From a virus: a stretch of 64,000 bases of DNA. The translations under genes were made by a program, and so were the position numbers. Under the pieces are notes generated by a model. The model made no database searches. It was not told where the DNA came from and saw nothing but the letters and a program-made list of their open reading frames with translations. The DNA is taken from IMG/VR virus record IMGVR_UViG_3300034073_002585, positions 1 to 64,000 of that record. The stretch is one strand, 5' to 3'. Shown piece after piece: positions 1 to 49,621 of this stretch (the first letter of the stretch is position 1; every line of letters begins with the position of its first letter).

Positions 1-168
1 TGGGAAGTAAGGTGGGAAGTAAGGTGGGAAGTAAGGTGGGAAGTAAGGTGGGAAGTAAGGTGGGAAGTAAGGTGGGAAGTAAGGTGGGAAGTAAGGTGGG
101 AAGTAAGGTGGGAAGTAAGGTGGGAAGAAAGGAGGGAAGTAGGGCGGGAAGTATGGTGGGAAGAATGG
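1..168 (-). repeat. 12-bp tandem repeat (tgggaagtaagg): 10 perfect copies plus 4 degenerate, encoding PYFP
   Basis: Directly visible; in frame with the 798 ORF. Confidence 0.97.
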
Positions 169-798
169 AGCTACAGTAGTTACGCTATTAGTTACAGAGC
201 CTTCAGACGTTCCATTGGCGTTGACGTGATAGAGAGTATATGTCTGAGAAGAACCGCCATTTTCTGCTTCTGTCCAAGGGTTACTTGTCATCGTAACCTG
301 ACCAGGGTTGGTTACCTGGTCAGATGATACAAAATATGTGGAGGTAATTGCTTTTCCACCAGAGTTACCTTGTGACCAAGAAATGATATCCTGGTTAGCT
401 GTGGTGGAGCTTGCAGATGCATTTTGAGGAGCCTGAGGTACGGTTGTAACCGTTACAGCAGAAGCTGCAGTCGGGTCACCATCACCAGAAGCGTTTGTTA
501 GGAATACCTGAACCGTGTATTCTGTGGCAGACAGCAGCCCAGTTACAGTAACAGAATAGACGCCACTACCGTTTGGTGAAGGCAAAACGCCCGTAGAAAG
601 AACAGTATTGTCTGCTTTTTCTACTGTATAGTTTGTTGCTTCTGGAGATAGCTCATTAATTGTCCATGTGACAATCAGTGCACCATCATCGTAGGGTCTA
701 TCGGTTCCAACATCAGTAGCTGTTACATTTTCGGGCGCTAGCGGCTCTAGAAAGTCATTCTGTGAGGATGACCTTCCACCTGCTTCTTTCTTTGCCAT
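1..798 (-). CDS. FN3-domain virion protein with (Pro-Pro-Tyr-Phe)n tract; 3'-partial, runs off the window
   Basis: Not in the ORF track. ATG at 798 gives MAKKEAGGRSSSQNDFLEPLAPENVTATDVG...LIVTW...VTGLLSATEYTVQV...VPQAPQNASAS (FN3-like), ending TTVAPFFPPYFPPYFPPFF(PPYF)n. Confidence 0.85.
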   Translation of the reverse strand, partial: MAKKEAGGRSSSQNDFLEPLAPENVTATDVGTDRPYDDGALIVTWTINELSPEATNYTVEKADNTVLSTGVLPSPNGSGVYSVTVTGLLSATEYTVQVFLTNASGDGDPTAASAVTVTTVPQAPQNASASSTTANQDIISWSQGNSGGKAITSTYFVSSDQVTNPGQVTMTSNPWTEAENGGSSQTYTLYHVNANGTSEGSVTNSVTTVAPFFPPYFPPYFPPFFPPYFPPYFPPYFPPYFPPYFPPYFPPYFPPYFPPYFPPYFP

Positions 799-5650: not shown

Positions 5651-6349
5651 TTAGAAGGTGGTGGCGTCTCCCCCCTCAATTGTACCTGAAATATTCTGTC
5701 CTGATATCTGTAGCTGTGTGCTGTGAATGTTTGTCCACATGTTGTTTGAAGAGTCGTAAGTTACGACATCTCCCTGTAACGGTTCATTAAAGTCAACGTC
5801 ATTTAAGTCTTCAAAATTGTTTACCGTACCAGCGTCACCAATAGGTGCAACAAGTAGCGAAACAGATTCATTGTATGTAAACTCTGTAGCCGTACCATCT
5901 AAGTAGACAAGAACAAAGGTTCTCCATCCAGAGCTACTAGTCACGGAACGGACGTAGTGCCTGCTCATATTTCTTGTGTTGTCGTTTGACTGGATAGTAA
6001 TAATAGATTTGTATGTGTTGGTCGACTGGGTCATTGCATTTAGCAGACCGAGCTGGCCGTCAGTTATCGCGTCTGTTTCTGAGATATATAACTCTGTTGC
6101 CAAACTTAAGTCAGCATTATTAAAAGCCATGTAGCCACCGCCAGGGTTAGCGGCTGAGACAGAGTTGTTAAATTTGTAGTTGGCACTAAGACCAGCGCCA
6201 GCCTCGCCTTGCGGACCTGTTGGTCCTTGCGGTCCCGCAGCTCCAGCTGGACCTACAGGACCCTGTGCTCCCTGTGGCCCAGCTGCTGCAACTGTGATTT
6301 GACGAGCATATCTACCAGAAGTAACTGTGCTAACTGTGTATCCTGCCAT
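5651..6349 (-). CDS. Collagen-repeat virion protein
   Basis: Gly-X-Y run GPQGAQGPVGPAGAAGPQGPTGPQGEAG; C-terminal EGGDATTF. Confidence 0.8.
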   Translation of the reverse strand: MAGYTVSTVTSGRYARQITVAAAGPQGAQGPVGPAGAAGPQGPTGPQGEAGAGLSANYKFNNSVSAANPGGGYMAFNNADLSLATELYISETDAITDGQLGLLNAMTQSTNTYKSIITIQSNDNTRNMSRHYVRSVTSSSGWRTFVLVYLDGTATEFTYNESVSLLVAPIGDAGTVNNFEDLNDVDFNEPLQGDVVTYDSSNNMWTNIHSTQLQISGQNISGTIEGGDATTF

Positions 6350-13164: not shown

Positions 13165-13246
13165 TATTATCCCTAAATCAGACTTATTGGTCGATAGTTA
13201 GATTATACCGTAGGCACATTGTGTCGATTTTGTGTACTATTGTATT

Positions 13247-14683
13247 ATGAAAATTGTAGGTGTCAACGAGACCACCCATGATGCTGCCATAGCAATCATT
13301 GAGGACGGGGAAATCCTTTTTGCTGGCCACGCTGAACGATACAGCAAAGAGAAGAACGACTGGTTCCTCAATGACGAACTTATCGCAGACGCCCTTATTT
13401 ACGGAGGGTCACCAGACAAGGTGGCCTATTACGAGAATAGATGGCTTAAGAAATATAGAATCTATAAGCATGGTGGCCTTGGAGGCGGAAGGCCATACTA
13501 TCTAAACACTGAACTTGGCAAGCTACCTAAGAAGAGCTTCGGGCATCACTACTCCCATGCGTGTGCTGGTTACTACACGTCCAACATGACAGACGCCATT
13601 ATTGTTGTACTGGATGCGATTGGCGAATTCGACACTTCAACTATTTGGAGTGGACACGGGGAAAAGATTACAAAGGTCTGGAACCAGCAGTATCCAGTTA
13701 GCTTTGGGTTGTTCTACTCTGCTTTTACCAAGTTAGTTGGTCTCAAGCCGAACGAGGAAGAATACATCATGATGGGCATGGCTGCCTATGGGGATGAGAG
13801 ACGTTACTACGAGAAAGTCAAAGAGTACTTCCCTATCTTTAATCGTCAAAAGTATAACTTCCACGTTGGAATCATCGATTGGGGAGAGGCTGTAGATGGT
13901 CAAGCAAAATTTGATATCGCTGCTGCCGTGCAAAAAGTTCTAGAAGACAGACTTATTGAGTTCATGAAGTTTGCAAAAAACTTAACTGGAAAAGATAATC
14001 TGGTTTTTATGGGCGGAGTTGCCTTAAATAGCAAGGCAAATACTTTGCTTTGGGGACTATTCAAAAATGTATGGATTATGCCGAACCCAGGGGATGCTGG
14101 GTCAGCATTGGGTGCAGCTGCAGCTATGTATGGCAAGCACTTGAACTGGAAGAGCCCCTATTTAGGCCATGATTTGGGCGGCGAATACCCTGTAGACAAA
14201 ATAATAAACGCCCTTATTGAAGATAAAATAGCACCAGTAGCTAGTGGAAGGGCTGAGTATGGACCGAGAGCTCTTGGCAATCGCAGTATTCTTGCTGACC
14301 CTCGTGATGCTGATATTAAAGAAAAGGTAAATACAATAAAGAAGCGTGAGCTGTTTAGGCCGTTTGCTCCAGTGGTACTGGCTGAGGAAGCTCACAAGTG
14401 GTTTGATATGAACTACATGTCACCGTACATGCAATACACCCCTAAGGCATTGAGACCAGAAATGATGCCTAGCGTTGTCCATGCTGACGGAACTTCTCGT
14501 GTGCAGACTGTAACTGAAAGTGAGCACCCTGGACTGTACGCGGTTTTGAAGAAGTGGCACGTATTGACTGGCGTTCCAGTTCTTTTGAATACTAGCTTAA
14601 ACATAAAAGGTCAGCCAATATTGAATGACGAAAAAGACGTCTCAAGCTGGGAAACTTACTATAAGAAAGGAATCATCAGATAA
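13247..14683 (+). CDS. Carbamoyltransferase, NodU/CmcH family
   Basis: HDAA, ERYS, HHYSH, LDAIGE, GGVALN, GDAGSALGA, EYGPRALGNRS, FRPFAP, VHADGTSRVQTV, LLNTSLN. Confidence 0.95.
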   Translation: MKIVGVNETTHDAAIAIIEDGEILFAGHAERYSKEKNDWFLNDELIADALIYGGSPDKVAYYENRWLKKYRIYKHGGLGGGRPYYLNTELGKLPKKSFGHHYSHACAGYYTSNMTDAIIVVLDAIGEFDTSTIWSGHGEKITKVWNQQYPVSFGLFYSAFTKLVGLKPNEEEYIMMGMAAYGDERRYYEKVKEYFPIFNRQKYNFHVGIIDWGEAVDGQAKFDIAAAVQKVLEDRLIEFMKFAKNLTGKDNLVFMGGVALNSKANTLLWGLFKNVWIMPNPGDAGSALGAAAAMYGKHLNWKSPYLGHDLGGEYPVDKIINALIEDKIAPVASGRAEYGPRALGNRSILADPRDADIKEKVNTIKKRELFRPFAPVVLAEEAHKWFDMNYMSPYMQYTPKALRPEMMPSVVHADGTSRVQTVTESEHPGLYAVLKKWHVLTGVPVLLNTSLNIKGQPILNDEKDVSSWETYYKKGIIR

Positions 14684-15009: not shown

Positions 15010-15599
15010 CCTTCTCTTTGTTTGTTTTCATATACTGAGTTATCTTGACCCAGCTCAAAAACAACTGCCATCCTAGGGGTAGGCATTCTTACTGAATGAT
15101 TCACTCCTCTGGGCAGATATATGACGTCCCCAGGCTCTAGGAAATGGCCTTGAGCGGGCTCTCTATCTCTCCAGTCATCATATATTTGCCACTCGGCGTT
15201 CCCCTGACATTGCCAATAAAATGTTTCTCTATCATCAGAGTGGACTGGTATAGGCTCTTCGCCACTCACATAGTTAACGATAGAATTCACCACTTTTGGT
15301 TTTACGCCTAGGGCTTTTTCTACTGAATTTTGTACCTGAAGAAGTTCTGGAAAATCCTCAACGTAGGGGTGTCTTACCATCATATAAAAGAGGTGGTGGA
15401 CAATTACTCCGTTAATTACTCTCTCGTTTAGAGGTTCCATTGGAATGGCTCCTGGGGGAGTGTGCATCTCTTTATCTACATAAGCAATTATTCTTTCCCA
15501 AGACGGTACCTCGGGCGCTAGATTTTTAAAAACTACTGCTCTGTTAGTTTCTCTAGCTTTTTCTATAGCTTCTTTTATAGATTCTGGTGTGTGCTCCAT
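15006..15599 (-). CDS. JmjC/cupin oxygenase (RoxA/YcfD-like core)
   Basis: HSD...YWQCQG...W...LEPGDVIYLPRG..H. Confidence 0.85.
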   Translation of the reverse strand: MEHTPESIKEAIEKARETNRAVVFKNLAPEVPSWERIIAYVDKEMHTPPGAIPMEPLNERVINGVIVHHLFYMMVRHPYVEDFPELLQVQNSVEKALGVKPKVVNSIVNYVSGEEPIPVHSDDRETFYWQCQGNAEWQIYDDWRDREPAQGHFLEPGDVIYLPRGVNHSVRMPTPRMAVVFELGQDNSVYENKQREG

Positions 15600-15670
15600 A
15601 GTTAAATTGTATAGCAGTATTTAGGGGTAAGTTTGAGTTGATATACTATGACTCATATAAAACTAAATAC

Positions 15671-15970
15671 GGGGCTGACTGGTTTCGACGGTATGTTTGA
15701 ATCTGGTGAAGCGTGCGGAGAAGCCTGTACCTCCTGAATCGGGCAAATCAATAACTGCAAACTCACGTTCTGCATTCGCTCTAGCTGCTTAGCTGAGCCC
15801 CGCTGGTAGATGTAGCTCTAACTAATCGCCACTGGGTTTAAATAAATAGAGCACTGTAACAAAGGTGGCGACCTTAAACGTAACCCGCAGTACCGTGGCT
15901 GGTAGAGCCTACGCACGTAGAAGAACAGAAGATGGCTTATCGGACGGGGGTTCGAATCCCCCCAGCTCCA
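15671..15970 (+). ncRNA. ssrA: tmRNA; tag reading frame 15757-15792 encodes ANSRSAFALAA
   Basis: 5' GGGGCTGACTGGTTTCGAC and 3' GGACGGGGGTTCGAATCCCCCCAGCTCCA; resume codon after ATAACT. Confidence 0.95.
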
Positions 15971-15972
15971 CT

Positions 15973-16590
15973 CTATTTGTTAGACAAGGATTTTATATAA
16001 TCCATGTTTGCCTGATGTATTTCTGACCTGTCTGGCTTAAAAGAGAAAGCAATCCCGCAGCGTGGTTGTCTAATTATTACGTTATGCTTAAGCTCTCTTG
16101 GTAGGTAGATAACATCCCCTGGATGTAGCTCGTTTGATTCTATAACTTTTGGAACTTCTGGCCAAACGGAATCATCTGAAATTTCCCAGATACTGGTGCC
16201 CTGGCACTGCCAATAAACTGTCTCCCTCATATCAGCATGTACTCCTATCGGAGGCTCTCCTCCGATGTAATTTATAAACGCACTAGTGGGTTCTATGGTT
16301 CCAGAAAGAGCGGAATCAAAAATATCTCTTATAAGCTTTGTTTCAGGGAAGGCCTCTAGGTCGGGGTCTCTTACGGCTAAGTAAAAAAGATTCCTAAGAA
16401 TAACTCCATTTATTGTTCTTTCTTCAAGTGGTATTAGAGGTATTGTGGCTGGAGGGGAATCAGCTTGCCTCTGAGCGTGCTGTATAAAGTCTTCCCATTT
16501 TGGGGTATCCTTTACTAGCCCTCTAAATACAGCTGCTCTTCTATCAGTCCGAGCCTGCTCTATTTTTTCTTTAATATTTTGGATTTCCAT
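15973..16590 (-). CDS. JmjC/cupin oxygenase (paralog)
   Basis: HAD...YWQCQG...LHPGDVIYLPRELKH. Confidence 0.85.
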   Translation of the reverse strand: MEIQNIKEKIEQARTDRRAAVFRGLVKDTPKWEDFIQHAQRQADSPPATIPLIPLEERTINGVILRNLFYLAVRDPDLEAFPETKLIRDIFDSALSGTIEPTSAFINYIGGEPPIGVHADMRETVYWQCQGTSIWEISDDSVWPEVPKVIESNELHPGDVIYLPRELKHNVIIRQPRCGIAFSFKPDRSEIHQANMDYIKSLSNK

Positions 16591-16634: not shown

Positions 16635-18551
16635 ATGAATAAAAAACTAATAGCAGTTTTTATAAGTCTATCAGTCGCAGTATTTGCCTTTTTTGGCCAA
16701 GCTGGGCCGCTTGCGGTGTCCTCTATCCCGAAGCAGAACATATTTGTAACCATGGAGACTCAGTCTGGCCCGACGTGGGGCTTAGATAGAGTCGACGGTT
16801 CCCTAGATGGAAAATACTCGTACATAAGTTCTGGTAAAAACGTAAAGATATATGTTGTAGACACGGGAGTAAATGCAGGTCATCCACAGCTGCTAGGTCG
16901 AGTCTTACCAGGGTATGACTCTTTCTCTGAAAATTTGCAGGGTAAGGATTGTAATGGCCACGGGACTCATGTTGCTGGTATCGTAGCTGGCTCTTATTAC
17001 GGAGTAGCAAAAGAAGCTACTATTGTTCCAGTTAGGGCATTGGATTGTTCTGGAAGAGGCACTACTGACAATATTGTAAAAAGTGTCGACTGGATTCTAA
17101 AAGACTACGACGGCACCCCCTCTATTGTAAATATGAGCCTCGGCGGGCCTAAAGATGTAGACGTAAATAATGCAGTACAGAAACTAATTTCTGCTGGAAT
17201 CATAGTTACGGTTGCAGCTGGAAACTCCAATGTAGATGCCTGTACCTTTTCCCCTGCAAGTGCTAATGGGGTAATATCTGTAGGCGCTACAGATAGCTCC
17301 GATAAAAAAGCATCATTCTCTAACTGGGGAGACTGCGTTGATATTTTTGCCCCTGGAGTGGGAATCAATTCAGCGAATTCTTTAAACTACCTCACTTCTT
17401 CTAAGAAGAGCGGTACGTCTCAGGCTGCCCCTTTTGTGGCTGGTGCGATTGCGACATACATCTCTAATGGGAAAGTCCAGAAAAGTGCCGATGCCGAAAG
17501 TTACTTATTGTCCGCGTCTGAGCTTGGTGTGGTGCTTGATGGGAATTCAAGGTATAACAACCTAGTAAATGTAGAAAAACTTGGCATTATCCAGGAGCCA
17601 CCTGTAACTGAACCTGAACCAGTTGTTGTAGAAAAACCTAAACCAATAGTTGACACTGCCCCCACGGTGTCTGCCCCCGCAAAGAGTCCTTCAGTAGAGC
17701 CTGTATATAAAATATCTCAGGACATACACATTATTAGTGTTCAACCTACTTCTGTGAAAATAGCTTGGAATGCGAATCAGTTGGCAAGGTACTACTCGGT
17801 CAGAGTATCTCTTGTAGGCAGTAGCGGTTATATCTACAAATCAAATACGTCTAACTTAGAAATAACTGTAAAAAATCTTCTAAGCAATAAAGATTATGTT
17901 TTGACTGTAGTTCCTGTTGCAAAAGGTGATTCTCAAGTAACTGATGGTGAAGTAGTTACGTTCTCTACACCTTACGGGGTACCTAGTTCGCCAAACCAAA
18001 TCACTATAAAAAATGACACATTGAATTGGAGCTCCCCATCCTATAACGGTGGGACTTACGATTTAACTTATGTAATTGAAAAGTACTCGAATGGAGAGTG
18101 GTCACAGCTAGCAACTACTAAAGAGTTGTACTATTCGGTAGAAAGACCTGATTTGGGTGTTACTCACATGTTCAGAGTTTCTGCTAAAACCCCTGCTGGC
18201 AGAGGTAAGGCTACAAAATCAATTTATTTGGTTGGTAATGGGATACCAAATGTTGTAGAGCCAGTACCTGACCTAAACCCAGAGCTGTCTGGGAGTGTCT
18301 CTGTATCTCAGAGGGCAGCTGGCTCAGGCCTTGCGACTGTCGAATGGTCTGCTTACGCTGGTGCTGACTCTTACTTGATTGAGAAATCCCCTCTGGGCTC
18401 TGAAAACCTATGGGAATCTGTCGGAATAACTACAAAAACAAGCAAGACTATTTCTCTACAGCCAGGTAAAAAATGGATAATTAGAGTGACTGCTAGGGGA
18501 GCTAACTCAGATGCCCTCCTGGGCACTGCTCAGTATGAAGGCCTAAGGTAG
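16635..18551 (+). CDS. Secreted S8 (aqualysin/proteinase K-like) serine protease with Pro-rich linker and FN3 domains
   Basis: Signal peptide; WGLDR, VDTG, HGTHVAG, NMSLGG, AAGN, SGTSQAAP. Confidence 0.93.
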   Translation: MNKKLIAVFISLSVAVFAFFGQAGPLAVSSIPKQNIFVTMETQSGPTWGLDRVDGSLDGKYSYISSGKNVKIYVVDTGVNAGHPQLLGRVLPGYDSFSENLQGKDCNGHGTHVAGIVAGSYYGVAKEATIVPVRALDCSGRGTTDNIVKSVDWILKDYDGTPSIVNMSLGGPKDVDVNNAVQKLISAGIIVTVAAGNSNVDACTFSPASANGVISVGATDSSDKKASFSNWGDCVDIFAPGVGINSANSLNYLTSSKKSGTSQAAPFVAGAIATYISNGKVQKSADAESYLLSASELGVVLDGNSRYNNLVNVEKLGIIQEPPVTEPEPVVVEKPKPIVDTAPTVSAPAKSPSVEPVYKISQDIHIISVQPTSVKIAWNANQLARYYSVRVSLVGSSGYIYKSNTSNLEITVKNLLSNKDYVLTVVPVAKGDSQVTDGEVVTFSTPYGVPSSPNQITIKNDTLNWSSPSYNGGTYDLTYVIEKYSNGEWSQLATTKELYYSVERPDLGVTHMFRVSAKTPAGRGKATKSIYLVGNGIPNVVEPVPDLNPELSGSVSVSQRAAGSGLATVEWSAYAGADSYLIEKSPLGSENLWESVGITTKTSKTISLQPGKKWIIRVTARGANSDALLGTAQYEGLR

Positions 18552-18560: not shown

Positions 18561-19535
18561 ATGGGAAATGGAAAAATGTTTGTTGGCATAGCTGCCATGA
18601 ATGAGATTGATGTTGTTCAAACTATTGAAAATGCTTTAGATATGGCAAAAGACCCCCAAAGAATTAATTTTGGTGTGTGGAATCACAATACCTTTGGGGA
18701 AGATTTAATATACAAACACCCGCAGGTCAGGATTGTTAATGTGCACTACCCTATATCGCTTGGCTTAGGAGTTGCTAGGTCCTGCGTCTCTGCACTTTAC
18801 GATGGCGAGGAGTATTACTATCAAATAGATGCTCATATGCTGTTCCAGCAAGACTGGGATGAGATATTAGTATCCTCCCATCAAGAGATAGAAAAGACAG
18901 CAGAGAAACCTATAATTTCTTATTTTGGCCAAATGTGGTGGACCGATGAGGACAATCAAATACACGGCTATAATCCAGATGCGGACATAATGGGACACCC
19001 CATCACTTATTCTGAAGAACATAGGTCATTCGGGCTACCAATAAATATTGGTGACCCAAGAGCCGCAGAGTTGTGGAAAACCACAGATAAAAGCTATTTA
19101 GAGCATTACAACATTCAGGGTGGATTCCTCTTTACAAAAGCAACCTTCCTGACTGAAGTTGGTTATGACCCTCAGTTAATGTTTTTCGGTGAAGAACTGC
19201 TTCTAGCAATGAGAGCTTGGACCAGGGGCTACAGAATCTTTTGTTTAGATAAACCAGTGCAGTGGCATAAAGATAGATGGGGCAGCAAGAAACACCCACA
19301 AGAGAGGGACTTGGTAGAGAATGCTCAGAGGCCTGCTAAAATTCCAGAGGCTGCCGTCTGGGATAGAAGACAGGAGGAAAGCATGCGAAGAGTGCAGGCT
19401 ATCTTTAGAGGAGATATTTTAGGTTTTTGGGGTGCCCCCACTAGGCAGTTACTAGATGAATATTTGTCTGTATCTAAGTTAGGGGAGAGAATGGACTTAG
19501 ATGAATTCACGCCATTCACTAAAGACTTAGAATAA
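18561..19535 (+). CDS. GT60-like ([Skp1]-hydroxyproline-type) GlcNAc transferase
   Basis: FVGIAA...TIENA...P.RINFGV...G.GVAR...LYDGEEYYYQIDAHMLFQQDWD...GFLF...YDPQLMFFGEE...RAWTRGY. Confidence 0.8.
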   Translation: MGNGKMFVGIAAMNEIDVVQTIENALDMAKDPQRINFGVWNHNTFGEDLIYKHPQVRIVNVHYPISLGLGVARSCVSALYDGEEYYYQIDAHMLFQQDWDEILVSSHQEIEKTAEKPIISYFGQMWWTDEDNQIHGYNPDADIMGHPITYSEEHRSFGLPINIGDPRAAELWKTTDKSYLEHYNIQGGFLFTKATFLTEVGYDPQLMFFGEELLLAMRAWTRGYRIFCLDKPVQWHKDRWGSKKHPQERDLVENAQRPAKIPEAAVWDRRQEESMRRVQAIFRGDILGFWGAPTRQLLDEYLSVSKLGERMDLDEFTPFTKDLE

Positions 19536-19686
19536 TAAAGTACTAAATATAGCATATTATGTACCAGTATTTGCTTGGATAATGTACATAACGTTACGTA
19601 CAAATACGTCATACAAACTTAGACCTAAGTTTATATAAAATATAATTTATAAAACTACTTAATCCATTAGTTGATAAACTATATCT

Positions 19687-20277
19687 ATGGATATAAAGAT
19701 ATTGGACATTCTAGGTACAAGTGTTGTATATTACACTAATATTTTAGATAAAAATACCACTATTGACGCCATATCTGACTTTGAAGCTTTCAGAGAAAAT
19801 ATTGAAAAAGACGCTCCCGATGGGTCTAGCACTGGAGTAGATAACTATTTAATGTCTACAAGTCTTAGTAAATATGTAGGGGAAATCTTTAAAATTACTG
19901 GTGAGCACTACATGGAGATAAATAGTCTGACCAGCGGAACCTTTAACCCGTACTGCTCCATGGTGTGTAGAAATTTTCCTGGACACACCAATATGGCCCA
20001 CGTAGACAGCATAAATATGGACCACCAAATAACTCAACTGCTTTATGTAAACGGTGACTACGAGGGAGGGGAGCTGTCTTTTGTCGGCACTTCCGAGGGG
20101 CTGAACTCTGACCTGCCTCCCACTAGCGAGCTTAATGCTGACAAGATTATTAGCCACATAAAGCCAGAGTGGTTTAGTGTAGTTATATTCCCTGGAACTC
20201 TAATGCATAGCGCACATAAACAAAACATCAAAAGTAAGTATCTAGTAAAAAACTCCTGGGGTTCTGGTGGAAAATAA
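19687..20277 (+). CDS. 2OG-Fe(II) oxygenase, prolyl-4-hydroxylase-like
   Basis: HVD, LLYVNGDYEGGEL.F, IFPGTLMH. Confidence 0.75.
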   Translation: MDIKILDILGTSVVYYTNILDKNTTIDAISDFEAFRENIEKDAPDGSSTGVDNYLMSTSLSKYVGEIFKITGEHYMEINSLTSGTFNPYCSMVCRNFPGHTNMAHVDSINMDHQITQLLYVNGDYEGGELSFVGTSEGLNSDLPPTSELNADKIISHIKPEWFSVVIFPGTLMHSAHKQNIKSKYLVKNSWGSGGK

Positions 20278-20830
20278 CGAAAAAGTTCACGTCATAGAAG
20301 GCGCTATCTCTAGAGAGCAAGCTGAGTACTACAGAAACCTTTTCTGGGAAACATCTGTAGAAAACATAGAAAACCCTAGGCCACACTTTAAGTTTCAAGG
20401 CATTTCTTGGATTCCATTCGGGTCAAGAGAGCCAGTGGGCGATTCGTGGATGCCTGATATGACTATTTCTTCTTTAGTTTTTTGGATAGAAAAGTTTTTC
20501 TTATACCACTACGACATACAGGACAAATTTGACCTTAAAAGAATTTTTGTTCACACTATGAAGACTGGAGCAGAAATTGAGGCTCACGTTGATGACGGTG
20601 ATATTTACGAAGGTAAGCCAGAAATCGAGCGCCACTATTCTGGCATTCTAATACTGAACGATGATTATGAAGGCGGAGAGCTTTATTTTAGAGAACTAGG
20701 AATCAGCATAAAACCACCTGCGGGAACCCTCGTTTTATTTAGGGGAGATGCCGAAAGAATACATGGGGTAACAAAGGTTACTGCTGGATATAGAATGAGT
20801 ATGCCAATATTCTTCAGAGAATACAAATAA
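20267..20830 (+). CDS. 2OG-Fe(II) oxygenase, prolyl-4-hydroxylase-like
   Basis: HVD, LNDDYEGGELYF, KPPAGTLVLF, HGVTKVTAGYR. Confidence 0.9.
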   Translation: MENNEKVHVIEGAISREQAEYYRNLFWETSVENIENPRPHFKFQGISWIPFGSREPVGDSWMPDMTISSLVFWIEKFFLYHYDIQDKFDLKRIFVHTMKTGAEIEAHVDDGDIYEGKPEIERHYSGILILNDDYEGGELYFRELGISIKPPAGTLVLFRGDAERIHGVTKVTAGYRMSMPIFFREYK

Positions 20831-20847
20831 ATTACGGGAAGAAACCT

Positions 20848-21897
20848 ATGACCACCAGCACGGTTCTTAAAGATGCAATTTTTGTGTGCATGGCAGCTTT
20901 TAACGAGCTACCTGAAAATATGATTGACACTATCAATAGTGCTTATGGTATGGCATCTAACCCAGAGAATATATATTTTGGTGTCCACAACCAAAACTCT
21001 GAGTTTTTTAGGTTACCTGTAGATAACCCTAGAGTTAAAGTTGTAAACTCTGAATGCACTCAACCTGTTGGTATGGAACTATCTAGAGCTATAGCTGCCA
21101 CCTTACGTGGAGACCAAGAGTATTTCCTACAAATTGATGCTCACATATTGTTCCAAAAAGACTGGGACTCCATTCTTTTGAAATACATGGAAAAGTTAAA
21201 AAGGACTCATGAGCTACCTATAATCTCTCAAATAGGTTTCCCTTGGAGCAGAGTAAACGGAGAAATCATCGGTTACCCCGAAGACGGAATCCCTATCGAT
21301 GAAGTTAACGACAATACTCCATACTCTGAATCTCACCCGTGGAATGGTATGAGGGGGCTCTCAGAGACCGAAAGTTATGACGGTTTCCCTGCTTTTGCAA
21401 TGAGAAAAATCAAAGAGCCAGCATATAAAGATGATGACTATGTTTACTATGAAAACCACGTTAATCATGCTGGATTCTTATTTGCTCCGATGTCCTACAT
21501 CGAGGAAGTTCCTCATGACCACAAAATTAAATATTTGGGCGACGAGCACTTAAACTCTATGAGAGCTTGGACTAGAGGATATAGATTCTTTTCTATAGCT
21601 CACCCGTTGCACTGGCACTACAATAAGGGAGCCAGCGACCTTCACCCTCAGGATAGGCACTACTTTAATAGAAATAGTTCGACCACAAACGCTGAACTTA
21701 ACTTGTCCGACGTCGAGTCTCACAATCGCCAGGCAAGGGGATACTTCCCGACTATGCACCGATACATTTACGGTAAAGAGTTCGGTGTCCATGGCGCACC
21801 TAACGAAGAAAGATGGAAAGAGTGGGCAACGCATGTTGGAATCATTGACCATCTAGAGAATTACACTGGATACGTAAACGAGAATCTAGTCCCTTAA
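20848..21897 (+). CDS. GT60-like GlcNAc transferase (second copy)
   Basis: IFVCMAAF...ASNPENIYFGV...QEYFLQIDAHILFQKDWD...AGFLF...EVPHD...GDE...RAWTRGY. Confidence 0.8.
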   Translation: MTTSTVLKDAIFVCMAAFNELPENMIDTINSAYGMASNPENIYFGVHNQNSEFFRLPVDNPRVKVVNSECTQPVGMELSRAIAATLRGDQEYFLQIDAHILFQKDWDSILLKYMEKLKRTHELPIISQIGFPWSRVNGEIIGYPEDGIPIDEVNDNTPYSESHPWNGMRGLSETESYDGFPAFAMRKIKEPAYKDDDYVYYENHVNHAGFLFAPMSYIEEVPHDHKIKYLGDEHLNSMRAWTRGYRFFSIAHPLHWHYNKGASDLHPQDRHYFNRNSSTTNAELNLSDVESHNRQARGYFPTMHRYIYGKEFGVHGAPNEERWKEWATHVGIIDHLENYTGYVNENLVP

Positions 21898-22505
21898 TGC
21901 ATTACTTTGTTGGTTGAGTAGTCCCAGAAAAGCGGCACATGCCACTTGGTACCGTTTTCAGTTGCATCAACTCCATGCTCATATGTTGACGGAAATATTG
22001 CAATTGAGCCTGCAGATGGCTCTAGCAAAATGTTTTGTTCTGGGAAGTAAACACTTCCCCCAGAAAAAGAGTCATTTAAATATATAACTAAGCTATATCT
22101 ATAGTCTAATCCAGGTCCAGCGTCGATATGGTTGCCTAGACCAGCGCCACTCCTATACTCTCTTATCTGAAATCTTTTCACTATATCTGGCGTGTCTTGT
22201 ATCTGAAATGCTACTGAAAAGTCGTCTATAACTTCTTTAACTGAGTCCACAATCGGGGAAACAATCGAGTCTCGTATCAAAGAATCAGCAGTAAAAATGT
22301 CTTGATTCTGTCCCTCTGGATACTCTATGTCTACTTTGTACCCCCTAAACTGCCCCGCTTGATTCCATTCGTGGAGTTCTGTCATCAGTGGTCTAGTGGC
22401 TAAATTTGATTCTAGAGCTAGAACTGATTCAATTATGGTCTGTGGATTCTGGACTACGTTTTTATATAAACGTATTTGATTCCCGTAGTCGACAATTTCT
22501 AACAT
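21894..22505 (-). CDS. 2OG-Fe(II) oxygenase, prolyl-4-hydroxylase-like
   Basis: HID, SLVIYLNDSFSGGSVYF, PSAGSIAIFPS, HGV. Confidence 0.88.
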   Translation of the reverse strand: MLEIVDYGNQIRLYKNVVQNPQTIIESVLALESNLATRPLMTELHEWNQAGQFRGYKVDIEYPEGQNQDIFTADSLIRDSIVSPIVDSVKEVIDDFSVAFQIQDTPDIVKRFQIREYRSGAGLGNHIDAGPGLDYRYSLVIYLNDSFSGGSVYFPEQNILLEPSAGSIAIFPSTYEHGVDATENGTKWHVPLFWDYSTNKVMH

Positions 22506-28355: not shown

Positions 28356-28973
28356 GTGTCTGTATATACAATAAATAACTTTATTTCTAGAGATGTTGCA
28401 TCAACTGTAGTAGACATCTTGCACCCCAGGATTGTAGCCACGCCTAGGGAGCATGTCAGCTCTTCACTAGGTTGGCCTAGTCCTGCTGCTGCTGCCAAAG
28501 TTGGTACAACTGAAGATTGCTACATAGATGACTCTAAAAAGACTGTAACTGGCGTATTTATCGACATATTAAAAAAGGTGGGGGAAACTTTTGATGAAGA
28601 CGTATGTCTAGTGAATGCTTTCTACAACGTGATGCATGAGGGAGCAGAGCATTCTCTACACTGCGATAACGTGAATCTTGATGGCTCTCCCCTAGAAGAA
28701 GGTGTAGAAGAACCTAATAAATGGTCAGGGGTGTTGTATTTAAATGATTACGGAATTGATTATTCTGGAGGGGAGATTAATTTCCCTAATCAAGAACTCA
28801 CTATAAAACCAGAAACTGGAACTTTTGTATATTTTAAGACAGATGTGGACCACCCGCATGAGGTTTTAAAAGTTCTATCTGGAGAAAGAAAATGTCTAGT
28901 TGTTTTCTTTGGAGAGCTCTCTGACGTTACAAGTAATAAATACTCTTGGAATGTTTTAAATGGGGAGAACTAG
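28356..28973 (+). CDS. 2OG-Fe(II) oxygenase, prolyl-4-hydroxylase-like
   Basis: HCD, SGVLYLND...GGEINF, HEVLKVLSGER. Confidence 0.9.
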   Translation: MSVYTINNFISRDVASTVVDILHPRIVATPREHVSSSLGWPSPAAAAKVGTTEDCYIDDSKKTVTGVFIDILKKVGETFDEDVCLVNAFYNVMHEGAEHSLHCDNVNLDGSPLEEGVEEPNKWSGVLYLNDYGIDYSGGEINFPNQELTIKPETGTFVYFKTDVDHPHEVLKVLSGERKCLVVFFGELSDVTSNKYSWNVLNGEN

Positions 28974-30016
28974 TGGAGCACATAAAAGTAATACCAGAGG
29001 TTGACCCAGAGATTCCGACTGTCGGAAAGTTTTGGAGTTCGGAACATATTGAAAAAATAGATGACCATCTATATAAGATAAGCAATCTAAAGTCAGAATG
29101 CGGTATTACAGACGCCCCCACTAACTCACTAAGCGGCAACTATTACATCACTGAATATAATAATTTCTACTGGCATTTTATACACGAAGACTTAGCTGGG
29201 TATGAGGGCATAAAGCAGCACGTACCTGATTTAAAGTTGGTATTGCTGGATAGCCAGGGATTTATGGCTGGCCCCAGGAAAACTAACTCTGGGCACAAGC
29301 ATTTTCCATACTTGGAGTATTTTGCCGAACTTTACGAAATCTCCAGTATCCCCAACATAGAACATGAGAACTGGGTATTTGAAACAGTGTATTTCACTAC
29401 AAGCAGCACTGAGTTCTTATCCGACCCGAGTTTTTGGGGAGATATGTTGCCTATGTCTGTTTGGCCATCAACTCAATTCGATGATTGGGATAAATCTGTT
29501 TGGACTAACAGGTCACCCTACTCTATAGAAGGTCTCAACAAACTGACTGAAAAAATTAAAAAAGATGTGTCACTTGATAAGAGTTTGCCAAAAAAGATAT
29601 TTATATCTAGAAAAGATGTAAATAAAAGACTTTTAGAGTTGGTTGGAAAACCTGGCTATGAGCATCTAGTAGAAGAGAGACTTTTTGAGGCCGAGTTTAT
29701 AGAGAACTATTTCTCGGCTAAAGGGTACCAAGTAGTCGCGTTAGAAGATTACGACTATAAAACTCAGATGCAGATGTTTATCAATGCAACAGACGTAGCT
29801 GGTACAGTCGGAGCTGGTTTCGCTAATCTACATATGAGCAGTCCTGGAACAAAACTTTACGAGCTTCATGTAATTCCGATATATGGCTTTGATTATGGTT
29901 ATTACAAAGACTATAGAAATATTGACTATATCCCCGTAGAGCTTAGAAATCTCTCTGAAGCTAGAACTCTCAGCGAAGATGAAATATTAGAGGTGCTAGA
30001 TGGCCTCGGAATATAA
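28973..30016 (+). CDS. Glycosyltransferase family 61-like protein
   Basis: NFYWHFIHE, KKIFISRKD, LEDY...Q..MF..A...G..GAGFAN. Confidence 0.75.
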   Translation: MEHIKVIPEVDPEIPTVGKFWSSEHIEKIDDHLYKISNLKSECGITDAPTNSLSGNYYITEYNNFYWHFIHEDLAGYEGIKQHVPDLKLVLLDSQGFMAGPRKTNSGHKHFPYLEYFAELYEISSIPNIEHENWVFETVYFTTSSTEFLSDPSFWGDMLPMSVWPSTQFDDWDKSVWTNRSPYSIEGLNKLTEKIKKDVSLDKSLPKKIFISRKDVNKRLLELVGKPGYEHLVEERLFEAEFIENYFSAKGYQVVALEDYDYKTQMQMFINATDVAGTVGAGFANLHMSSPGTKLYELHVIPIYGFDYGYYKDYRNIDYIPVELRNLSEARTLSEDEILEVLDGLGI

Positions 30017-30926
30017 AACTAGATACTTTAATACTATTGAAGAAGTAGAGTTCTTCGGGTATTTGAGAAAAATCTCTAAAGATAATGCAAAGCTAAAAGC
30101 AGAGTACGACTATTGGTACGAGTTACCAGACGCCATTAAACATTTTTTTGTTCAACCATTCGGGTTTTACCTTGATGGCGAGGTTGCTTACTACTATATG
30201 GAGCACTACCAAATAAAAAATGCAGCAGAGCAAATGGTTTTTGGTGAACTTTCTGATGCCGCATTTAGTCGACTAATGAGAAAGATAGCAGATTTCAGAA
30301 AAGTTTTACCCGATGAGCCAGCTCTAGACTCTCAGGTCGATGAGAATGCAAAATTATTAGTCTTAGAAAAAACTAAGCAACGAATTGAAGAACTAAATAA
30401 AACTGCTTGGTTTAAGTCAAAATACGCTTTAGCGCTGGAGTCTTCTCAGATAACGCCTGAAATTCTTTATAAAGAGCTAGAAGAAAAATTTAATGAACAC
30501 TATAAAAGAAGAACGCTAAAAAGGATTGTCTGTTCGCATGGCGACTTAGTTTTTTCTAACATTCTTTACGATGACCGAATAAGTCTTATGAAGTTGGTAG
30601 ACCCTAAGGGTAGAGACTTTATGTTTATGGATGAGTACTATGACTTAGCTAAATTAAGTCAATCTATCAATGGTAACTACGAGGACATCATATACGGACA
30701 GTATTCTCTCAACCTAGATAGCAAAAAGTTATTCATAAAAAGGCCAGAAAATCAGACCCACAGAGCTGAATTTAAGCAATACCTCATGCAACAAAATGTA
30801 GATTTAAAGCTCCTGAGGACATATGAAGCTAGCCTGTTTCTGTCTATGCTTCCGCTACACATAGATGATTTAGAACGAGTTGCTGCTTTACTGGTAAACT
30901 GTAACAAGATATTAAAATCTATATAA
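30000..30926 (+). CDS. APH/choline-kinase-like phosphotransferase
   Basis: HGDLVFSNIL, KLVDPKG, YYDLAKLSQS, LFLSMLPLH. Confidence 0.8.
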   Translation: MASEYKTRYFNTIEEVEFFGYLRKISKDNAKLKAEYDYWYELPDAIKHFFVQPFGFYLDGEVAYYYMEHYQIKNAAEQMVFGELSDAAFSRLMRKIADFRKVLPDEPALDSQVDENAKLLVLEKTKQRIEELNKTAWFKSKYALALESSQITPEILYKELEEKFNEHYKRRTLKRIVCSHGDLVFSNILYDDRISLMKLVDPKGRDFMFMDEYYDLAKLSQSINGNYEDIIYGQYSLNLDSKKLFIKRPENQTHRAEFKQYLMQQNVDLKLLRTYEASLFLSMLPLHIDDLERVAALLVNCNKILKSI

Positions 30927-30936
30927 GGAAAATCCC

Positions 30937-31677
30937 ATGCATGAGCGCGAAAAAATTAGTTTAGTAGTGTTGGCTGCAGGCCGAGGAACCAGATTTGCTG
31001 GTTCAGATTACACAGAGCACAAGACTTTAATACCAGTAAATGGTGAAAAGATGTCTGTATTTTCTATGAAGAACAGCGTAGAAAATATGAAAGACATGTC
31101 TTTTGACGTGCTATTCCTATCTTCTCCAGAAATTCTTGAAGAAGACGCATCACTGGAAAGTGACGTTAAAGCTGCAGTAGAGGGAGTAAGGTTTGTTGCT
31201 CAGGAAGGCTACCTAAATGGCCCAGGGCAAAGTGCTGGTTATGTTAGAAATTATGTAAGAGCCGAGGCTCCATTATTTTTAGTAAATGCTGACCAGTACG
31301 TAGTCGGTGATTATGTAAACGCACTAGACGAGGTTCTAGACTCTGATGACCTAGATGGAGCTATTCTCTGCTTCAACAGCTCGGAGGACCGCTACTCTTA
31401 TGTTGTAGTGGACGAAAACGGTGTAGCAACTGACATGCAAGAAAAAGTTGTAATCAGTGACACCGCCAGCGCTGGGCTTTGCTTTTGGAAGAAGGCTTCT
31501 GATTTCTATAGTACGCTAGACACCATGGACCTCTCTAAAGAAGTTTTTATTAGTGATGTTCATGCTAAAGCTATTCAAAATGGGAAAAAGTTCAAGGTGG
31601 TTCTACTCGATGCCTTTATCGACATGGGAACCCCTGCGGACTTGGAGGTATTTGACGAAAGATGGGCAGCGCTCTAA
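30937..31677 (+). CDS. Sugar-phosphate nucleotidyltransferase (GT-A fold)
   Basis: VVLAAGRGTRF...K.LI.VNG, NADQ, EKVVISD.A..G, MGTP.DL. Confidence 0.85.
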   Translation: MHEREKISLVVLAAGRGTRFAGSDYTEHKTLIPVNGEKMSVFSMKNSVENMKDMSFDVLFLSSPEILEEDASLESDVKAAVEGVRFVAQEGYLNGPGQSAGYVRNYVRAEAPLFLVNADQYVVGDYVNALDEVLDSDDLDGAILCFNSSEDRYSYVVVDENGVATDMQEKVVISDTASAGLCFWKKASDFYSTLDTMDLSKEVFISDVHAKAIQNGKKFKVVLLDAFIDMGTPADLEVFDERWAAL

Positions 31678-45907: not shown

Positions 45908-46304
45908 TTAGTTTCCTTTTCTGAAGTAACAGGTCAAAATCTTTGACCTTTGTGTCTCCCATGTATGACCATGCGTACCCTGAGGCAATCATGGCTTCGT
46001 TAACAGACAACTCTTCTGAATCTAAAAAGAGCCATCCCAGTACTCGCCCATACTTCTCGGACGAGTCAGGTTTTTCTGTGCGGATAACAACCGAAGTTGC
46101 ATCTGCAAGTCGATGCTTTAAGTAGTTCTTGACTTCTAGTCCTAAAGTTTTTTCATACTTGTCTGAAGTGCGGGACTCTGGAGTATCGATGCCTGCAAGA
46201 CGTACTCGCTTAGTGATGGAGATATCAAAGCCGAGGTCAATCTCGACGTCGATGGTGTCTCCATCTACAACCTTTAGGATTTGCTTAACTCGGTATTCGT
46301 ACAT
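45891..46304 (-). CDS. Thermonuclease (SNase-like)
   Basis: VVDGDTID, RVRLAGIDTPE, KYGRVLG. Confidence 0.92.
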   Translation of the reverse strand: MYEYRVKQILKVVDGDTIDVEIDLGFDISITKRVRLAGIDTPESRTSDKYEKTLGLEVKNYLKHRLADATSVVIRTEKPDSSEKYGRVLGWLFLDSEELSVNEAMIASGYAWSYMGDTKVKDFDLLLQKRKLNDSLH

Positions 46305-49300: not shown

Positions 49301-49621
49301 TTCGTTAGAAGTTGAAAGGTTGGTCTCTGCTTGGTTAAAAGTTTGGATGGCAGAAGAGTAAGAAGCAACTGAGTTAGCGAAACCGTTAACCGTTAGGGTT
49401 AGGGCATCTAGCTCCGAGATGGAGTTAGGTGCGTAAGTGTTGTAGTGAGCAGTGTAGTCAGCTAGGGTTTGGGTATAGCTGGCTAGGTTAGCTTGGTAGG
49501 TAGCTAAGGACTGGTTGTGGTCTACTGCTGAGGCTGGCAACATCCATGCAAACATTGGGCCAACTAGGGCCAAGTTTAATGAGATGAATGAGTGCCAGAA
49601 GACCTTATTTCTTAGGCGCAT
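46304..49621 (-). CDS. Large exported/virion protein: coiled coil, beta-helix, FN3, Pro/Thr-rich stalk, C-terminal anchor
   Basis: Signal-like N-terminus; GTLRWAI beta-helix cap; FN3 ([17 protein letters not shown]); ~125-aa PTP/PEP tract; hydrophobic C-terminus. Confidence 0.8.

What the first reader, a model, noticed from the sequence alone, without database searches (positions are those of the whole stretch)
18561..22505. Candidate phage Skp1-like prolyl-hydroxylation / O-GlcNAc glycosylation pathway
Seen: gene order GT60-like, P4H-like, P4H-like, GT60-like, P4H-like. Known: in Dictyostelium and Toxoplasma a prolyl-4-hydroxylase makes hydroxyproline on Skp1, a GT60 enzyme (Gnt1) adds GlcNAc, and further GTs (including a GT8 in Toxoplasma) extend the glycan. 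Seen nearby: GT8 (23886), GT-A (24641), GT61-like (28973), kinase plus nucleotidyltransferase, FkbM-like MTase and SGNH-like proteins. Plausible substrates are in the same window: the (PPYF)n FN3 protein, the collagen protein (5651), the PTP/PEP stalk (46304) and the Pro-rich linker of the adjacent S8 protease. Inference: the phage hydroxylates and glycosylates its own Pro-rich appendages, giving an extensin/mucin-like coat. Modifying host proteins or the host surface is the alternative.
Basis: partly seen in the sequence, partly recalled or inferred. Interest (0 to 1): 0.88.

Follow-up and report, generated by a model that had tools for sequence, protein, structure and literature searches.

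The report
Phage protein hydroxylase and glycosyltransferase gene cluster
An uncultured 154-kb phage of actinobacteria carries two sugar-transferases of the family that glycosylates hydroxyproline in protists, interleaved with three proline-hydroxylase-type enzymes, and comparison with other phages suggests they decorate the phage's own proline-rich fibre proteins, which has not been tested in any phage.

Summary
At 18561-22505 lie two PF11397 (CAZy GT60-type) glycosyltransferases and three PF13640 prolyl-hydroxylase-type 2OG oxygenases, in the stated order and with catalytic motifs intact.

- GT60#1 folds like polypeptide GalNAc-transferases, which act on proteins.
- The oxygenases resemble collagen-type, algal and chlorovirus prolyl hydroxylases, not clearly the Skp1 enzyme PhyA. 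No Skp1 is present.
- Among 52 phage GT60 lineages, a hydroxylase lies within 100 bp in 14 (1.9 expected). An aromatic-proline repeat gene lies within 2 kb in 9 (2.1 expected).
- Natural fusions exist: hydroxylase+GT60, and HPAT+O-FucT+GT60 directly after a hydroxylase.

Caveats:
- Orthologues of GT60#1 in sister phages keep an S8 protease, a carbamoyltransferase and a GT61 as neighbours. A hydroxylase is next door in only two of four.
- One GT60 clade with YYAPP-type repeats has no phage hydroxylase.
- No substrate gene adjoins this cluster.

So hydroxyproline as the sugar's attachment site remains unproven.

This scan has noted similar P4H/GT60 modules in at least 20 other genomes, and the hydroxylase array elsewhere in this genome. 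I found no paper describing such a phage system.

The parts
18561..19535 (+). GT60#1: PF11397 glycosyltransferase, 324 aa, DxH motif QIDAH at nt 18822-18836
   Evidence: Pfam 116.8 bits. AF2 pLDDT 90.3. Best folds are ppGalNAc-T1 (Z 21.3) and TgGalNAc-T3 (Z 20.0), against 16.7 or less for other GT-A enzymes. 81% identical orthologue in sister phage L088.
19687..20277 (+). P4H-like 2OG-Fe(II) oxygenase a (196 aa), weakest member; HVD at nt 19999-20007
   Evidence: PF13640 24.4 bits, below cut-off. Triad kept. DSBH model matches P3H1, Dictyostelium PhyA, OGFOD1 and Cr-P4H, and also small-molecule oxygenases. Absent from sister phage L088.
20267..20830 (+). P4H-like 2OG-Fe(II) oxygenase b (187 aa); HVD at nt 20585-20593
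   Evidence: PF13640 47.8 bits. PDB sequence hits: P3H1 1.8e-6, PiuC, B. anthracis P4H, PBCV-1 P4H.
20848..21897 (+). GT60#2: PF11397 glycosyltransferase, 349 aa, QIDAH at nt 21130-21144
   Evidence: Pfam 80.3 bits in 2 stretches. 33% identical to GT60#1. Groups with the genome's third copy at 81286-82269 (SH-aLRT 96).
21894..22505 (-). P4H-like 2OG-Fe(II) oxygenase c (203 aa), convergent; HID at nt 22122-22130
   Evidence: PF13640 41.7 bits. Positional counterpart in L088/L094 is only 30% identical, while the adjacent GT60 is 81%.
16635..18551 (+). Secreted S8 subtilase with FN3 domains and a Pro-rich linker; conserved upstream neighbour of GT60#1
   Evidence: PF00082 133 bits plus fn3. Signal-peptide-like N-terminus. 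Conserved in L088, L093 and L094.
13232..14683 (+). NodU-type O-carbamoyltransferase; in sister phages it lies directly upstream of GT61-GT60
   Evidence: PF16861/PF02543. NodU 163 bits. Synteny. A carbamoyltransferase also follows the distant GT60-like gene of Xanthomonas phage XacN1.
23865..24680 (+). GT8 glycosyltransferase
   Evidence: PF01501 125 bits.
28356..28973 (+). Fourth P4H-like oxygenase, overlapping the start of the GT61 gene
   Evidence: PF13640 48 bits. Conserved P4H-GT61-kinase-nucleotidyltransferase block in L088.
28946..30016 (+). GT61-like glycosyltransferase
   Evidence: PF04577 34.7 bits. 47% identical to the L088 orthologue.
30000..31677 (+). APH-like kinase plus sugar-1-phosphate nucleotidylyltransferase (probable NDP-sugar supply)
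   Evidence: Kinase has only weak hits. PF00483 40 bits and GlmU/RmlA-like NCBIfam hits.
1..798 (-). Candidate substrate: FN3-(FPPY/F)n fibre-associated protein, 314 aa, running across the record's ends
   Evidence: The 124-bp 'terminal repeat' lies inside the repeat tract. A GT60 copy and the P4H array lie directly downstream on the same strand.
5651..6349 (-). Candidate substrate: fibre-module protein with a short collagen-like G-P-X tract
46304..49621 (-). Candidate substrate: 1105-aa protein with a long Pro/Thr/Glu-rich linker and an FN3-like domain

Best explanation
The five genes belong to a genome-wide, phage-encoded protein-tailoring system. I found 4 GT60-type transferases and at least 17 prolyl-hydroxylase-type oxygenases. 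The window also holds GT8, GT61, an O-carbamoyltransferase and a nucleotidyltransferase with a weakly matched kinase, a probable NDP-sugar supply pair.

All the enzymes lack signal peptides, so they would act in the infected cell's cytoplasm.
- Hydroxylation (inferred): the oxygenases use Fe(II), 2-oxoglutarate and O2 to hydroxylate prolines in extended, proline-rich stretches of the phage's own virion and fibre proteins.
- Glycosylation (inferred): the GT60 enzymes, retaining GT-A transferases with a DxH metal site, start O-linked HexNAc glycans on the same proteins. GT61 and GT8 would extend these glycans and the carbamoyltransferase would decorate them.

Shown here: family membership, intact catalytic motifs, a protein-transferase-like fold, and recurrent adjacency or fusion of GT60, P4H and proline-repeat genes in other phages.

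Inferred only: the target proteins, the sugar, and whether the sugar sits on hydroxyproline (Skp1/extensin style) or on Thr, Ser or Tyr.

The two GT60 and three P4H copies in this cluster are fast-evolving extra paralogues in a plastic island. They probably add acceptor or site specificities rather than forming a self-contained pathway.
For: Family membership and motifs:
- Pfam hits, DxH and HxD...H motifs.
- The GT60#1 model resembles polypeptide GalNAc-transferases well above other GT-A folds. Foldseek's top 50 hits are all GT27; VIA Z is 21.3 and 20.0 against 16.7 or less.
- The oxygenase profile hits P3H1 (3e-13), B. anthracis P4H (6.5e-9), PBCV-1 P4H and Chlamydomonas P4H-1.

Comparative evidence:
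- In 52 phage GT60 lineages, a P4H lies within 100 bp in 14 (1.9 expected) and an aromatic-Pro repeat gene within 2 kb in 9 (2.1 expected).
- The repeat types differ between lineages: FPPY, PPTFT, PPSFPI, PPPPRF.

Fusions:
- P4H+GT60, 555 aa.
- Bacterial giant proteins with multiple GT60 domains (8 matched stretches), a peroxiredoxin domain and two P4H-type domains.
- Phage protein HPAT+O-FucT+GT60, 3 bp after a P4H.

Location of other GT60 copies:
- Among Mtd_N fibre genes in other phages.
- In this genome, between terminase and portal.
- In this genome, beside the (FPPY)n gene.

Plasticity: sister phages with 93%-identical RNR differ sharply in these genes.

Background: GT60 enzymes of known function glycosylate proteins, on Hyp (Gnt1) or on the polypeptide directly (T. 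cruzi enzyme) (PMC6939170).
Against: - No proline-repeat gene adjoins this cluster. The nearest candidates are 12 kb or more away.
- Orthologues of GT60#1 have a P4H next door in only 2 of 4 sister contexts. Their constant partners are glycan enzymes and a secreted protease.
- A GT60 clade with YYAPP repeats has no phage P4H in 50-83% complete records.
- Adjacency to repeat genes may partly reflect shared residence in fibre modules.
- The fold of oxygenase a also resembles small-molecule and sugar oxygenases such as SptF, AviO1 and HygX.
- The chlorovirus review lists an unpublished observation that no hydroxyproline was detected in purified PBCV-1 particles, although that virus encodes a P4H (PMC7019647).
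- Nothing here has been tested biochemically.
Confidence: 0.55

Rival explanations
1. Mucin-style glycosylation without hydroxyproline. The GT60s put HexNAc directly on Thr, Ser or Tyr of phage proteins, as the T. cruzi GT60 and the structurally similar GT27 enzymes do. The hydroxylases act separately, for example to stiffen polyproline or collagen-like segments. The two enzyme types would share targets but not a sequential Pro -> Hyp -> sugar chemistry.
For: - The fold is closest to Ser/Thr-specific ppGalNAc-transferases.
- GT60 includes a polypeptide GlcNAc-transferase that does not use Hyp (PMC6939170).
- A P4H-less phage GT60 clade exists.
- The P4H neighbour of GT60#1 is variable in sister phages.
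- Several repeat types near GT60 are Thr-rich, such as PPTFT.
Against: - P4H+GT60 fusions, and a Hyp-arabinosyltransferase-family domain fused to GT60 directly after a P4H, argue for coupled chemistry in at least some lineages.
- FPPY and YYAPP units have no Ser or Thr.
Confidence: 0.25
2. Host-directed or secreted-protein modification. The enzymes modify host proteins or envelope components, or the phage's secreted S8 protease, rather than virion proteins. The purpose could be takeover, superinfection exclusion or protection of the protease.
For: - GT60#1 is always next to a signal-peptide S8 protease that has a Pro-rich linker.
- The cluster lies in an auxiliary region with RNR, tRNA, tmRNA and JmjC genes, not in the structural module.
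- No hydroxyproline was detected in PBCV-1 particles.
Against: - Other copies of the same families lie in head and fibre modules.
- Phage-encoded repeat proteins track with the enzymes.
- Seventeen paralogues are hard to explain by a few host targets.
Confidence: 0.12
3. Non-protein substrates. The oxygenases tailor sugars, other small molecules or DNA bases (TET/JBP style), and the GTs build a free or lipid-linked glycan or glycosylate DNA.
For: - Weak Tet_JBP hit for 20267-20830 (E 1.5e-4, below cut-off).
- Fold matches to sugar and small-molecule oxygenases.
- GT60 is linked to a carbamoyltransferase, also in Xanthomonas phage XacN1.
Against: - The best sequence matches are peptidyl-prolyl hydroxylases.
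- The GT fold is closest to polypeptide transferases.
- The genome has no C5 DNA methyltransferase.
- The enzymes are linked to repeat proteins and to fusions with protein O-glycosyltransferase families.
Confidence: 0.08

Closest known systems
Skp1 hydroxyproline-glycosylation pathway of Dictyostelium and Toxoplasma (PhyA prolyl 4-hydroxylase, then Gnt1, CAZy GT60; PMC6939170)
   Same: Cytoplasmic enzymes. A 2OG prolyl-hydroxylase-type enzyme is encoded together with a PF11397/GT60 transferase. A GT8 lies nearby; from memory, Toxoplasma's last pathway enzyme is also GT8.
   Different: - No Skp1 is present.
- By sequence the hydroxylases are collagen/PKHD-type, not PHD/PhyA-type.
- There are many paralogues instead of one enzyme each.
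- The likely targets are repeats, not a single proline.
- The extension enzymes differ: GT61 and a carbamoyltransferase.
- The Hyp acceptor is unproven.
[quoted passage not shown]
   Same: Same family (GT60), or the closest fold (GT27). DxH metal motif. Protein acceptors rich in Pro and Thr.
   Different: Those enzymes are Golgi membrane proteins that act on Thr or Ser. The phage proteins are small, soluble, lack a lectin domain, and are often coupled to hydroxylases.
Chlorovirus PBCV-1 prolyl 4-hydroxylase (PDB 5c5t) and Chlamydomonas/plant P4H with HPAT Hyp-arabinosyltransferases (extensin pathway)
   Same: - Virus-encoded collagen-type P4H. From memory, the PBCV-1 enzyme hydroxylates proline-rich repeat peptides in vitro (Eriksson 1999, title only seen).
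- Sequence similarity to these enzymes.
- An HPAT-family domain is fused to GT60 in a related phage module.
   Different: Bacterial rather than eukaryotic virus. This genome has no detectable HPAT (uninformative control). The expansion to at least 17 paralogues is far larger.
Mimivirus L230 collagen lysyl hydroxylase/glucosyltransferase (PMC5802723, PMC9546862)
   Same: A virus encodes a 2OG hydroxylase coupled to a glycosyltransferase that modifies its own collagen-like fibre proteins.
   Different: That system hydroxylates Lys rather than Pro, uses other GT families, and belongs to a eukaryotic giant virus.
Mycobacteriophage virion glycosylation (Freeman 2023, cited in PMC12582341)
   Same: An actinobacteriophage uses its own glycosyltransferases to glycosylate virion proteins.
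   Different: I could not read that paper, so the enzyme families are not compared here. I am not aware that it reports a hydroxylase step.

Membership tests
PF11397 / CAZy GT60 glycosyltransferases | Sequence match above Pfam's curated cut-off | tested here: met
   116.8 and 80.3 bits against a cut-off of 21. Four copies in the genome. CAZy/dbCAN's own GT60 model was not available.
PF11397 / CAZy GT60 glycosyltransferases | GT-A fold with a DxH/DxD metal-binding motif | tested here: met
   AF2 pLDDT 90.3. GT-A matches with Z up to 21.3. D and H of the QIDAH motif are invariant across 18 sequences.
PF11397 / CAZy GT60 glycosyltransferases | Transfers alpha-GlcNAc from UDP-GlcNAc to a polypeptide | not testable with these tools
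   Needs an enzyme assay. The only support is the closest fold, polypeptide HexNAc-transferases.
Skp1 Hyp-glycosylation pathway (PhyA/Gnt1) | Skp1 substrate present | tested here: not met
   No PF01466 match in the complete phage genome. Bacteria are not known to have Skp1 (general knowledge).
Skp1 Hyp-glycosylation pathway (PhyA/Gnt1) | PHD/PhyA-type prolyl 4-hydroxylase | tested here: inconclusive
   The sequence profile finds P3H1, bacterial, algal and viral P4Hs and PiuC, but no entry named as PHD2 or PhyA, at E <= 0.01. Dictyostelium PhyA (6t8m) is fold hit no. 2 for oxygenase a, at E 2.5e-6.
Skp1 Hyp-glycosylation pathway (PhyA/Gnt1) | GT60 strictly dependent on prior prolyl hydroxylation | not testable with these tools
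   Indirect evidence for: fusions and adjacency. Indirect evidence against: the P4H-less clade and the variable neighbour.
Collagen-type prolyl hydroxylases (P4Hc, PF13640) | HxD...H iron triad plus a basic 2OG-binding residue | tested here: met
   Present in all three cluster genes and all 17 paralogues.
Collagen-type prolyl hydroxylases (P4Hc, PF13640) | Pfam match above cut-off | tested here: met
   47.8 and 41.7 bits for two genes. The third, 19687-20277, scores 24.4, below the cut-off of 27, but has the DSBH fold.
Collagen-type prolyl hydroxylases (P4Hc, PF13640) | Hydroxylates peptidyl-proline | not testable with these tools
   Needs an assay. Relatives in the same superfamily act on other substrates.

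The most novel reading that the evidence does not exclude
The phage runs an extensin-like modification system in a bacterial cytoplasm. An array of specialised prolyl hydroxylases writes position-specific hydroxyproline onto (FPPY)n, collagen-like and Pro/Thr-rich fibre proteins. Four GT60 paralogues then start HexNAc glycans on those hydroxyprolines, which GT61 and GT8 extend and a NodU-type enzyme carbamoylates. This would be the first hydroxyproline O-glycosylation shown outside eukaryotes. It would also be a rapidly diversifying virion sugar coat, used for host recognition or for evading defence or enzymatic attack.
Probability: 0.3. Interest if true: 0.85.

Novelty: new variant of a known kind. 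Interest (0 to 1): 0.6.

Why it matters
To my knowledge, hydroxyproline-linked glycans are treated as a eukaryotic trait (plant extensins, protist Skp1). Phage virion glycosylation has been reported for mycobacteriophages.

A phage that carries its own hydroxylases and GT60 transferases would extend both fields. It would offer a compact set of enzymes for site-specific protein hydroxylation and glycosylation in bacteria. It could also explain why prolyl 4-hydroxylase genes, whose role in viruses is called 'cryptic' (PMC9301287), are so abundant in viral metagenomes.

The strong gene turnover between sister phages suggests the modification is under arms-race pressure. That makes it relevant to host range and to phage stability.

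This particular cluster is the less informative half of the genome's system, because no substrate gene adjoins it.

Tried and rejected
- Nucleotide search of the cluster against 50,697 phage records found nothing. The protein search found only four jumbo phages of Xanthomonas and Stenotrophomonas, at about 24% identity.
- PDB sequence searches with both GT60s found nothing, so a fold search was used instead.
- Complex prediction on GT60#2 with oxygenase b gave no verdict (score 0.01; first attempt unanswered). This counts neither for nor against binding.
- HPAT and O-FucT families were sought in this genome with no match. The controls did not ring either, so this is uninformative.
- The TET/JBP-style DNA-modification idea was considered because of a weak Tet_JBP hit. 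I set it aside because there is no C5 methyltransferase and the better matches are prolyl hydroxylases.
- The trees could not say which GT60 or P4H paralogue serves which substrate. The own copies sit on long branches with weak support.
- Freeman et al. 2023 is not held in the library.
- Literature searches for GT60 or PF11397 with phage found only a passing CAZy tally in one preprint.
- No placement relative to Gnt1 or the T. cruzi enzyme was possible, because no reference sequences could be obtained through the tools.

Full report
**What the record is.**
- The window is the first 64 kb of a complete 154,192-bp viral record.
- It encodes a WhiB regulator, as do its sister contigs. This points to an actinobacterial host.
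- No record in the cultured-phage collection resembles the cluster at DNA level.
- The 124-bp 'direct terminal repeat' lies inside a 12-bp tandem repeat, so the ends simply close a circle within the (FPPY)n tract.

**Observation.**
- The five ORFs are at the stated coordinates.
- Pfam assigns 18561-19535 and 20848-21897 to PF11397 'Glycosyltransferase (GlcNAc)', at 116.8 and 80.3 bits against a cut-off of 21.
- Pfam assigns 20267-20830 and 21894-22505(-) to PF13640, at 47.8 and 41.7 bits against a cut-off of 27.
- 19687-20277 scores 24.4 bits, below the cut-off.
- All three oxygenases keep HxD...H and a basic residue.
- The weakest oxygenase folds as a double-stranded beta-helix (pLDDT 79.6). 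Its top matches are P3H1, Dictyostelium PhyA, OGFOD1, PHD2 and algal and bacterial P4Hs. They also include small-molecule oxygenases.
- Both GT60s keep the QIDAH (DxH) and TRGYR motifs. D, H and TRGY of these motifs are invariant across 18 relatives.
- Genome-wide there are four PF11397 genes and 17 PF13640-type genes, 11 of them in an array at 142-152 kb.

**What kind of enzymes.**
- The AF2 model of GT60#1 (pLDDT 90.3) matches only polypeptide GalNAc-transferases in Foldseek's top 50 (E down to 3e-12).
- An independent all-against-representatives search gives mGalNAc-T1 Z 21.3 (273 residues aligned, rmsd 3.4) and Toxoplasma GalNAc-T3 Z 20.0. The next GT-A enzyme scores 16.7.
- The GT60 enzymes of known function, Gnt1 (hydroxyproline of Skp1) and the T. 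cruzi polypeptide GlcNAc-transferase, both glycosylate proteins (PMC6939170).
- A profile of the window's oxygenases hits human P3H1 (3e-13), B. anthracis P4H (6.5e-9), PiuC, PBCV-1 P4H (4e-6) and Chlamydomonas P4H-1 (8e-6).
- By sequence they are therefore collagen/PKHD-type peptidyl-prolyl hydroxylase relatives rather than clearly the PHD/PhyA type.
- The genome has no Skp1.

**Comparative evidence for a functional link.**
- A pattern scan found 205 viral stretches encoding GT60 relatives, and 80 loci were kept.
- I used HMMs built from this genome's own paralogues and dereplicated the GT60s at 70% identity into 52 lineages.
  - A P4H-type gene lies within 100 bp of the GT60 in 14 lineages. 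For a random other gene of the same loci, 1.9 are expected.
  - A gene with an aromatic-proline repeat lies within 2 kb in 9 lineages, against 2.1 expected.
- The repeats differ in sequence between lineages: FPPY/FFPFFPP, PPTFT, PPSFPI, PPPPRF and YYAPP. This argues for a shared physical property rather than shared descent.
- On the GT60 tree these features concentrate in the half that holds the window's copies.
- Natural fusions exist:
  - a 555-aa P4H+GT60 protein;
  - bacterial chromosomal proteins of 2,019-2,461 aa with multiple GT60 domains (8 matched stretches), a peroxiredoxin domain and two P4H-type domains;
  - a 1,039-aa phage protein joining an HPAT (hydroxyproline O-arabinosyltransferase family, 32 bits against a cut-off of 23.9), an O-FucT and a GT60 domain, 3 bp after a P4H gene.
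- In a P4H-less clade the GT60 gene lies among Mtd_N tail-fibre genes.
- In this genome, one GT60 lies between terminase and portal. Another lies between the P4H array and the (FPPY)n fibre-associated gene.

- Orthologues of GT60#1 (58-81% identical) sit in a conserved block in three of four sister contigs: S8 protease, NodU-type carbamoyltransferase, GT61, GT60. L092 lacks the S8 protease, and in L093 the GT61 follows the GT60.
- A P4H is next door in only two of the four.
- Where present, that P4H is only 30% identical to ours, while the GT60 is 81% and the RNR 93% identical.
- The segment 19687-21897 (P4H, P4H, GT60#2) is absent from the sister phage. The GT61 upstream of GT60#1 is absent from ours.
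- The island therefore turns over quickly.
- A distant GT60-like gene in the cultured Xanthomonas phage XacN1 is also followed by a carbamoyltransferase.
- The YYAPP-repeat clade has no PF13640 gene in records 50-83% complete. Its repeat units contain no Ser or Thr.
- Hydroxyproline made by a phage enzyme is therefore not a universal requirement for phage GT60s.
- No proline-repeat gene adjoins the cluster. The neighbouring S8 protease has a Pro-rich linker but also a signal peptide.
- The chlorovirus review lists an unpublished observation that no hydroxyproline was detected in PBCV-1 particles, although that virus encodes a P4H.

**Mechanism proposed.**
- Soluble oxygenases hydroxylate prolines of extended proline-rich segments of phage structural proteins before assembly.
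- GT60 enzymes add the first HexNAc, to hydroxyproline or to another hydroxyl.
- GT61 and GT8 extend the glycan and the carbamoyltransferase decorates it.
- The nucleotidyltransferase and the weakly matched kinase may supply a nucleotide sugar.
- Only family membership, motifs, fold and gene linkage are shown. The target, the sugar and the linkage are inferred.
- I put 0.55 on modification of phage virion proteins, and about 0.3 on true hydroxyproline-linked glycosylation by these GT60s.
- Rivals:
  - direct Thr/Ser/Tyr glycosylation with independent hydroxylation (0.25);
  - host or secreted-protein targets (0.12);
  - non-protein substrates (0.08). This one is weakened by the absence of a C5 DNA methyltransferase and by the protein-type matches.

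**Novelty.**
- Full-text searches for GT60 or PF11397 with phage, and for bacteriophage with hydroxyproline and glycosyltransferase, returned no description of such a phage system.
- A Baltic Sea virome paper calls the role of viral P4H 'cryptic'.
- The ESM Atlas shows that PF11397 clusters are common among Uroviricota, so the family's presence in phages is visible in databases.
- Closely related kinds are known: the Skp1 pathway, PBCV-1 P4H, Mimivirus L230 and mycobacteriophage virion glycosylation.
- This scan has already noted similar modules in at least 20 other genomes, and the hydroxylase array of this same genome.
- My results were obtained independently from the GT60 side and agree with those notes.
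- I class it as a new variant of a known kind.
- It is of real interest if confirmed at the bench, but this cluster alone does not identify its substrate.

Noticed in passing
G000 81286-82269 (L097:7287-8270): A third GT60 paralogue lies between the large terminase (L097:5498-6925) and the portal gene (L097:8585-10327), inside the head and packaging module.
   Followed up: partly
window 1-124 and G000 154069-154192: The record's 124-bp 'direct terminal repeat' lies inside the 12-bp (FPPY)n tandem repeat. The ends close a circle within the repeat, and the repeat copy number is uncertain.
   Followed up: yes
window 14785-16590: A tmRNA gene (15671-15971, tag ANSRSAFALAA) and a tRNA-Met lie between two JmjC-type oxygenase genes (15006-15599 and 15973-16590, both minus strand). 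This suggests a translation-related hydroxylase pair distinct from the P4H set.
   Followed up: no
window 12538-13164 (-): A glutathione-peroxidase/peroxiredoxin-like gene. In bacterial giant proteins an AhpC-TSA peroxiredoxin domain is fused between GT60 and P4H domains (P0060-P0062). The peroxidase may protect or serve the oxygenases.
   Followed up: partly
L077:385-6486 and L083:5992-10948: A phage module with a 416-430-aa P4H followed at 2-3 bp by a large multi-domain glycosyltransferase, then a separate GT60. L077's is HPAT + O-FucT + GT60; in L083's only O-FucT + GT60 were detected. No proline-rich gene was found on these fragments.
   Followed up: partly
L021:1-1275, L028:2-559, L032:8828-9550, L020:8945-9550: Fibre-module proteins with YYAPP/YHAP-type repeats lie 0.4-0.8 kb from a GT60. 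No phage P4H is detectable in the two repeat-bearing records whose genomes were searched (L028/L032-type G004, 83% complete; L021-type G005, 72%). Tyr is the only hydroxyl in the repeat unit, which raises the possibility of Tyr glycosylation.
   Followed up: partly
window 28356-31677: A block of P4H (overlapping the next gene by 28 bp), GT61, APH-like kinase and sugar-1-P nucleotidylyltransferase. It is conserved gene for gene in sister phage L088 at 46-50% identity.
   Followed up: partly
L098 (Xanthomonas phage XacN1, AP018399.1 219791-223508): In a cultured jumbo phage, a distant GT60-like glycosyltransferase (ORF334) is followed directly by a 765-aa carbamoyltransferase (ORF333). This echoes the carbamoyltransferase-GT61-GT60 block of the sister phages.
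   Followed up: no
G000 142244-152053 versus L014/L023 3008-11475: The paralogues of the P4H array have one-to-one orthologues in a 112-kb phage (G002). The array is therefore old and each copy is kept, which suggests different site specificities.
   Followed up: partly
window 45891-46304 (-) and 34141-34917 (+): A staphylococcal-nuclease-like gene lies directly downstream of the 1105-aa Pro/Thr-rich protein. A ThyX thymidylate synthase lies at 34141-34917.
   Followed up: no
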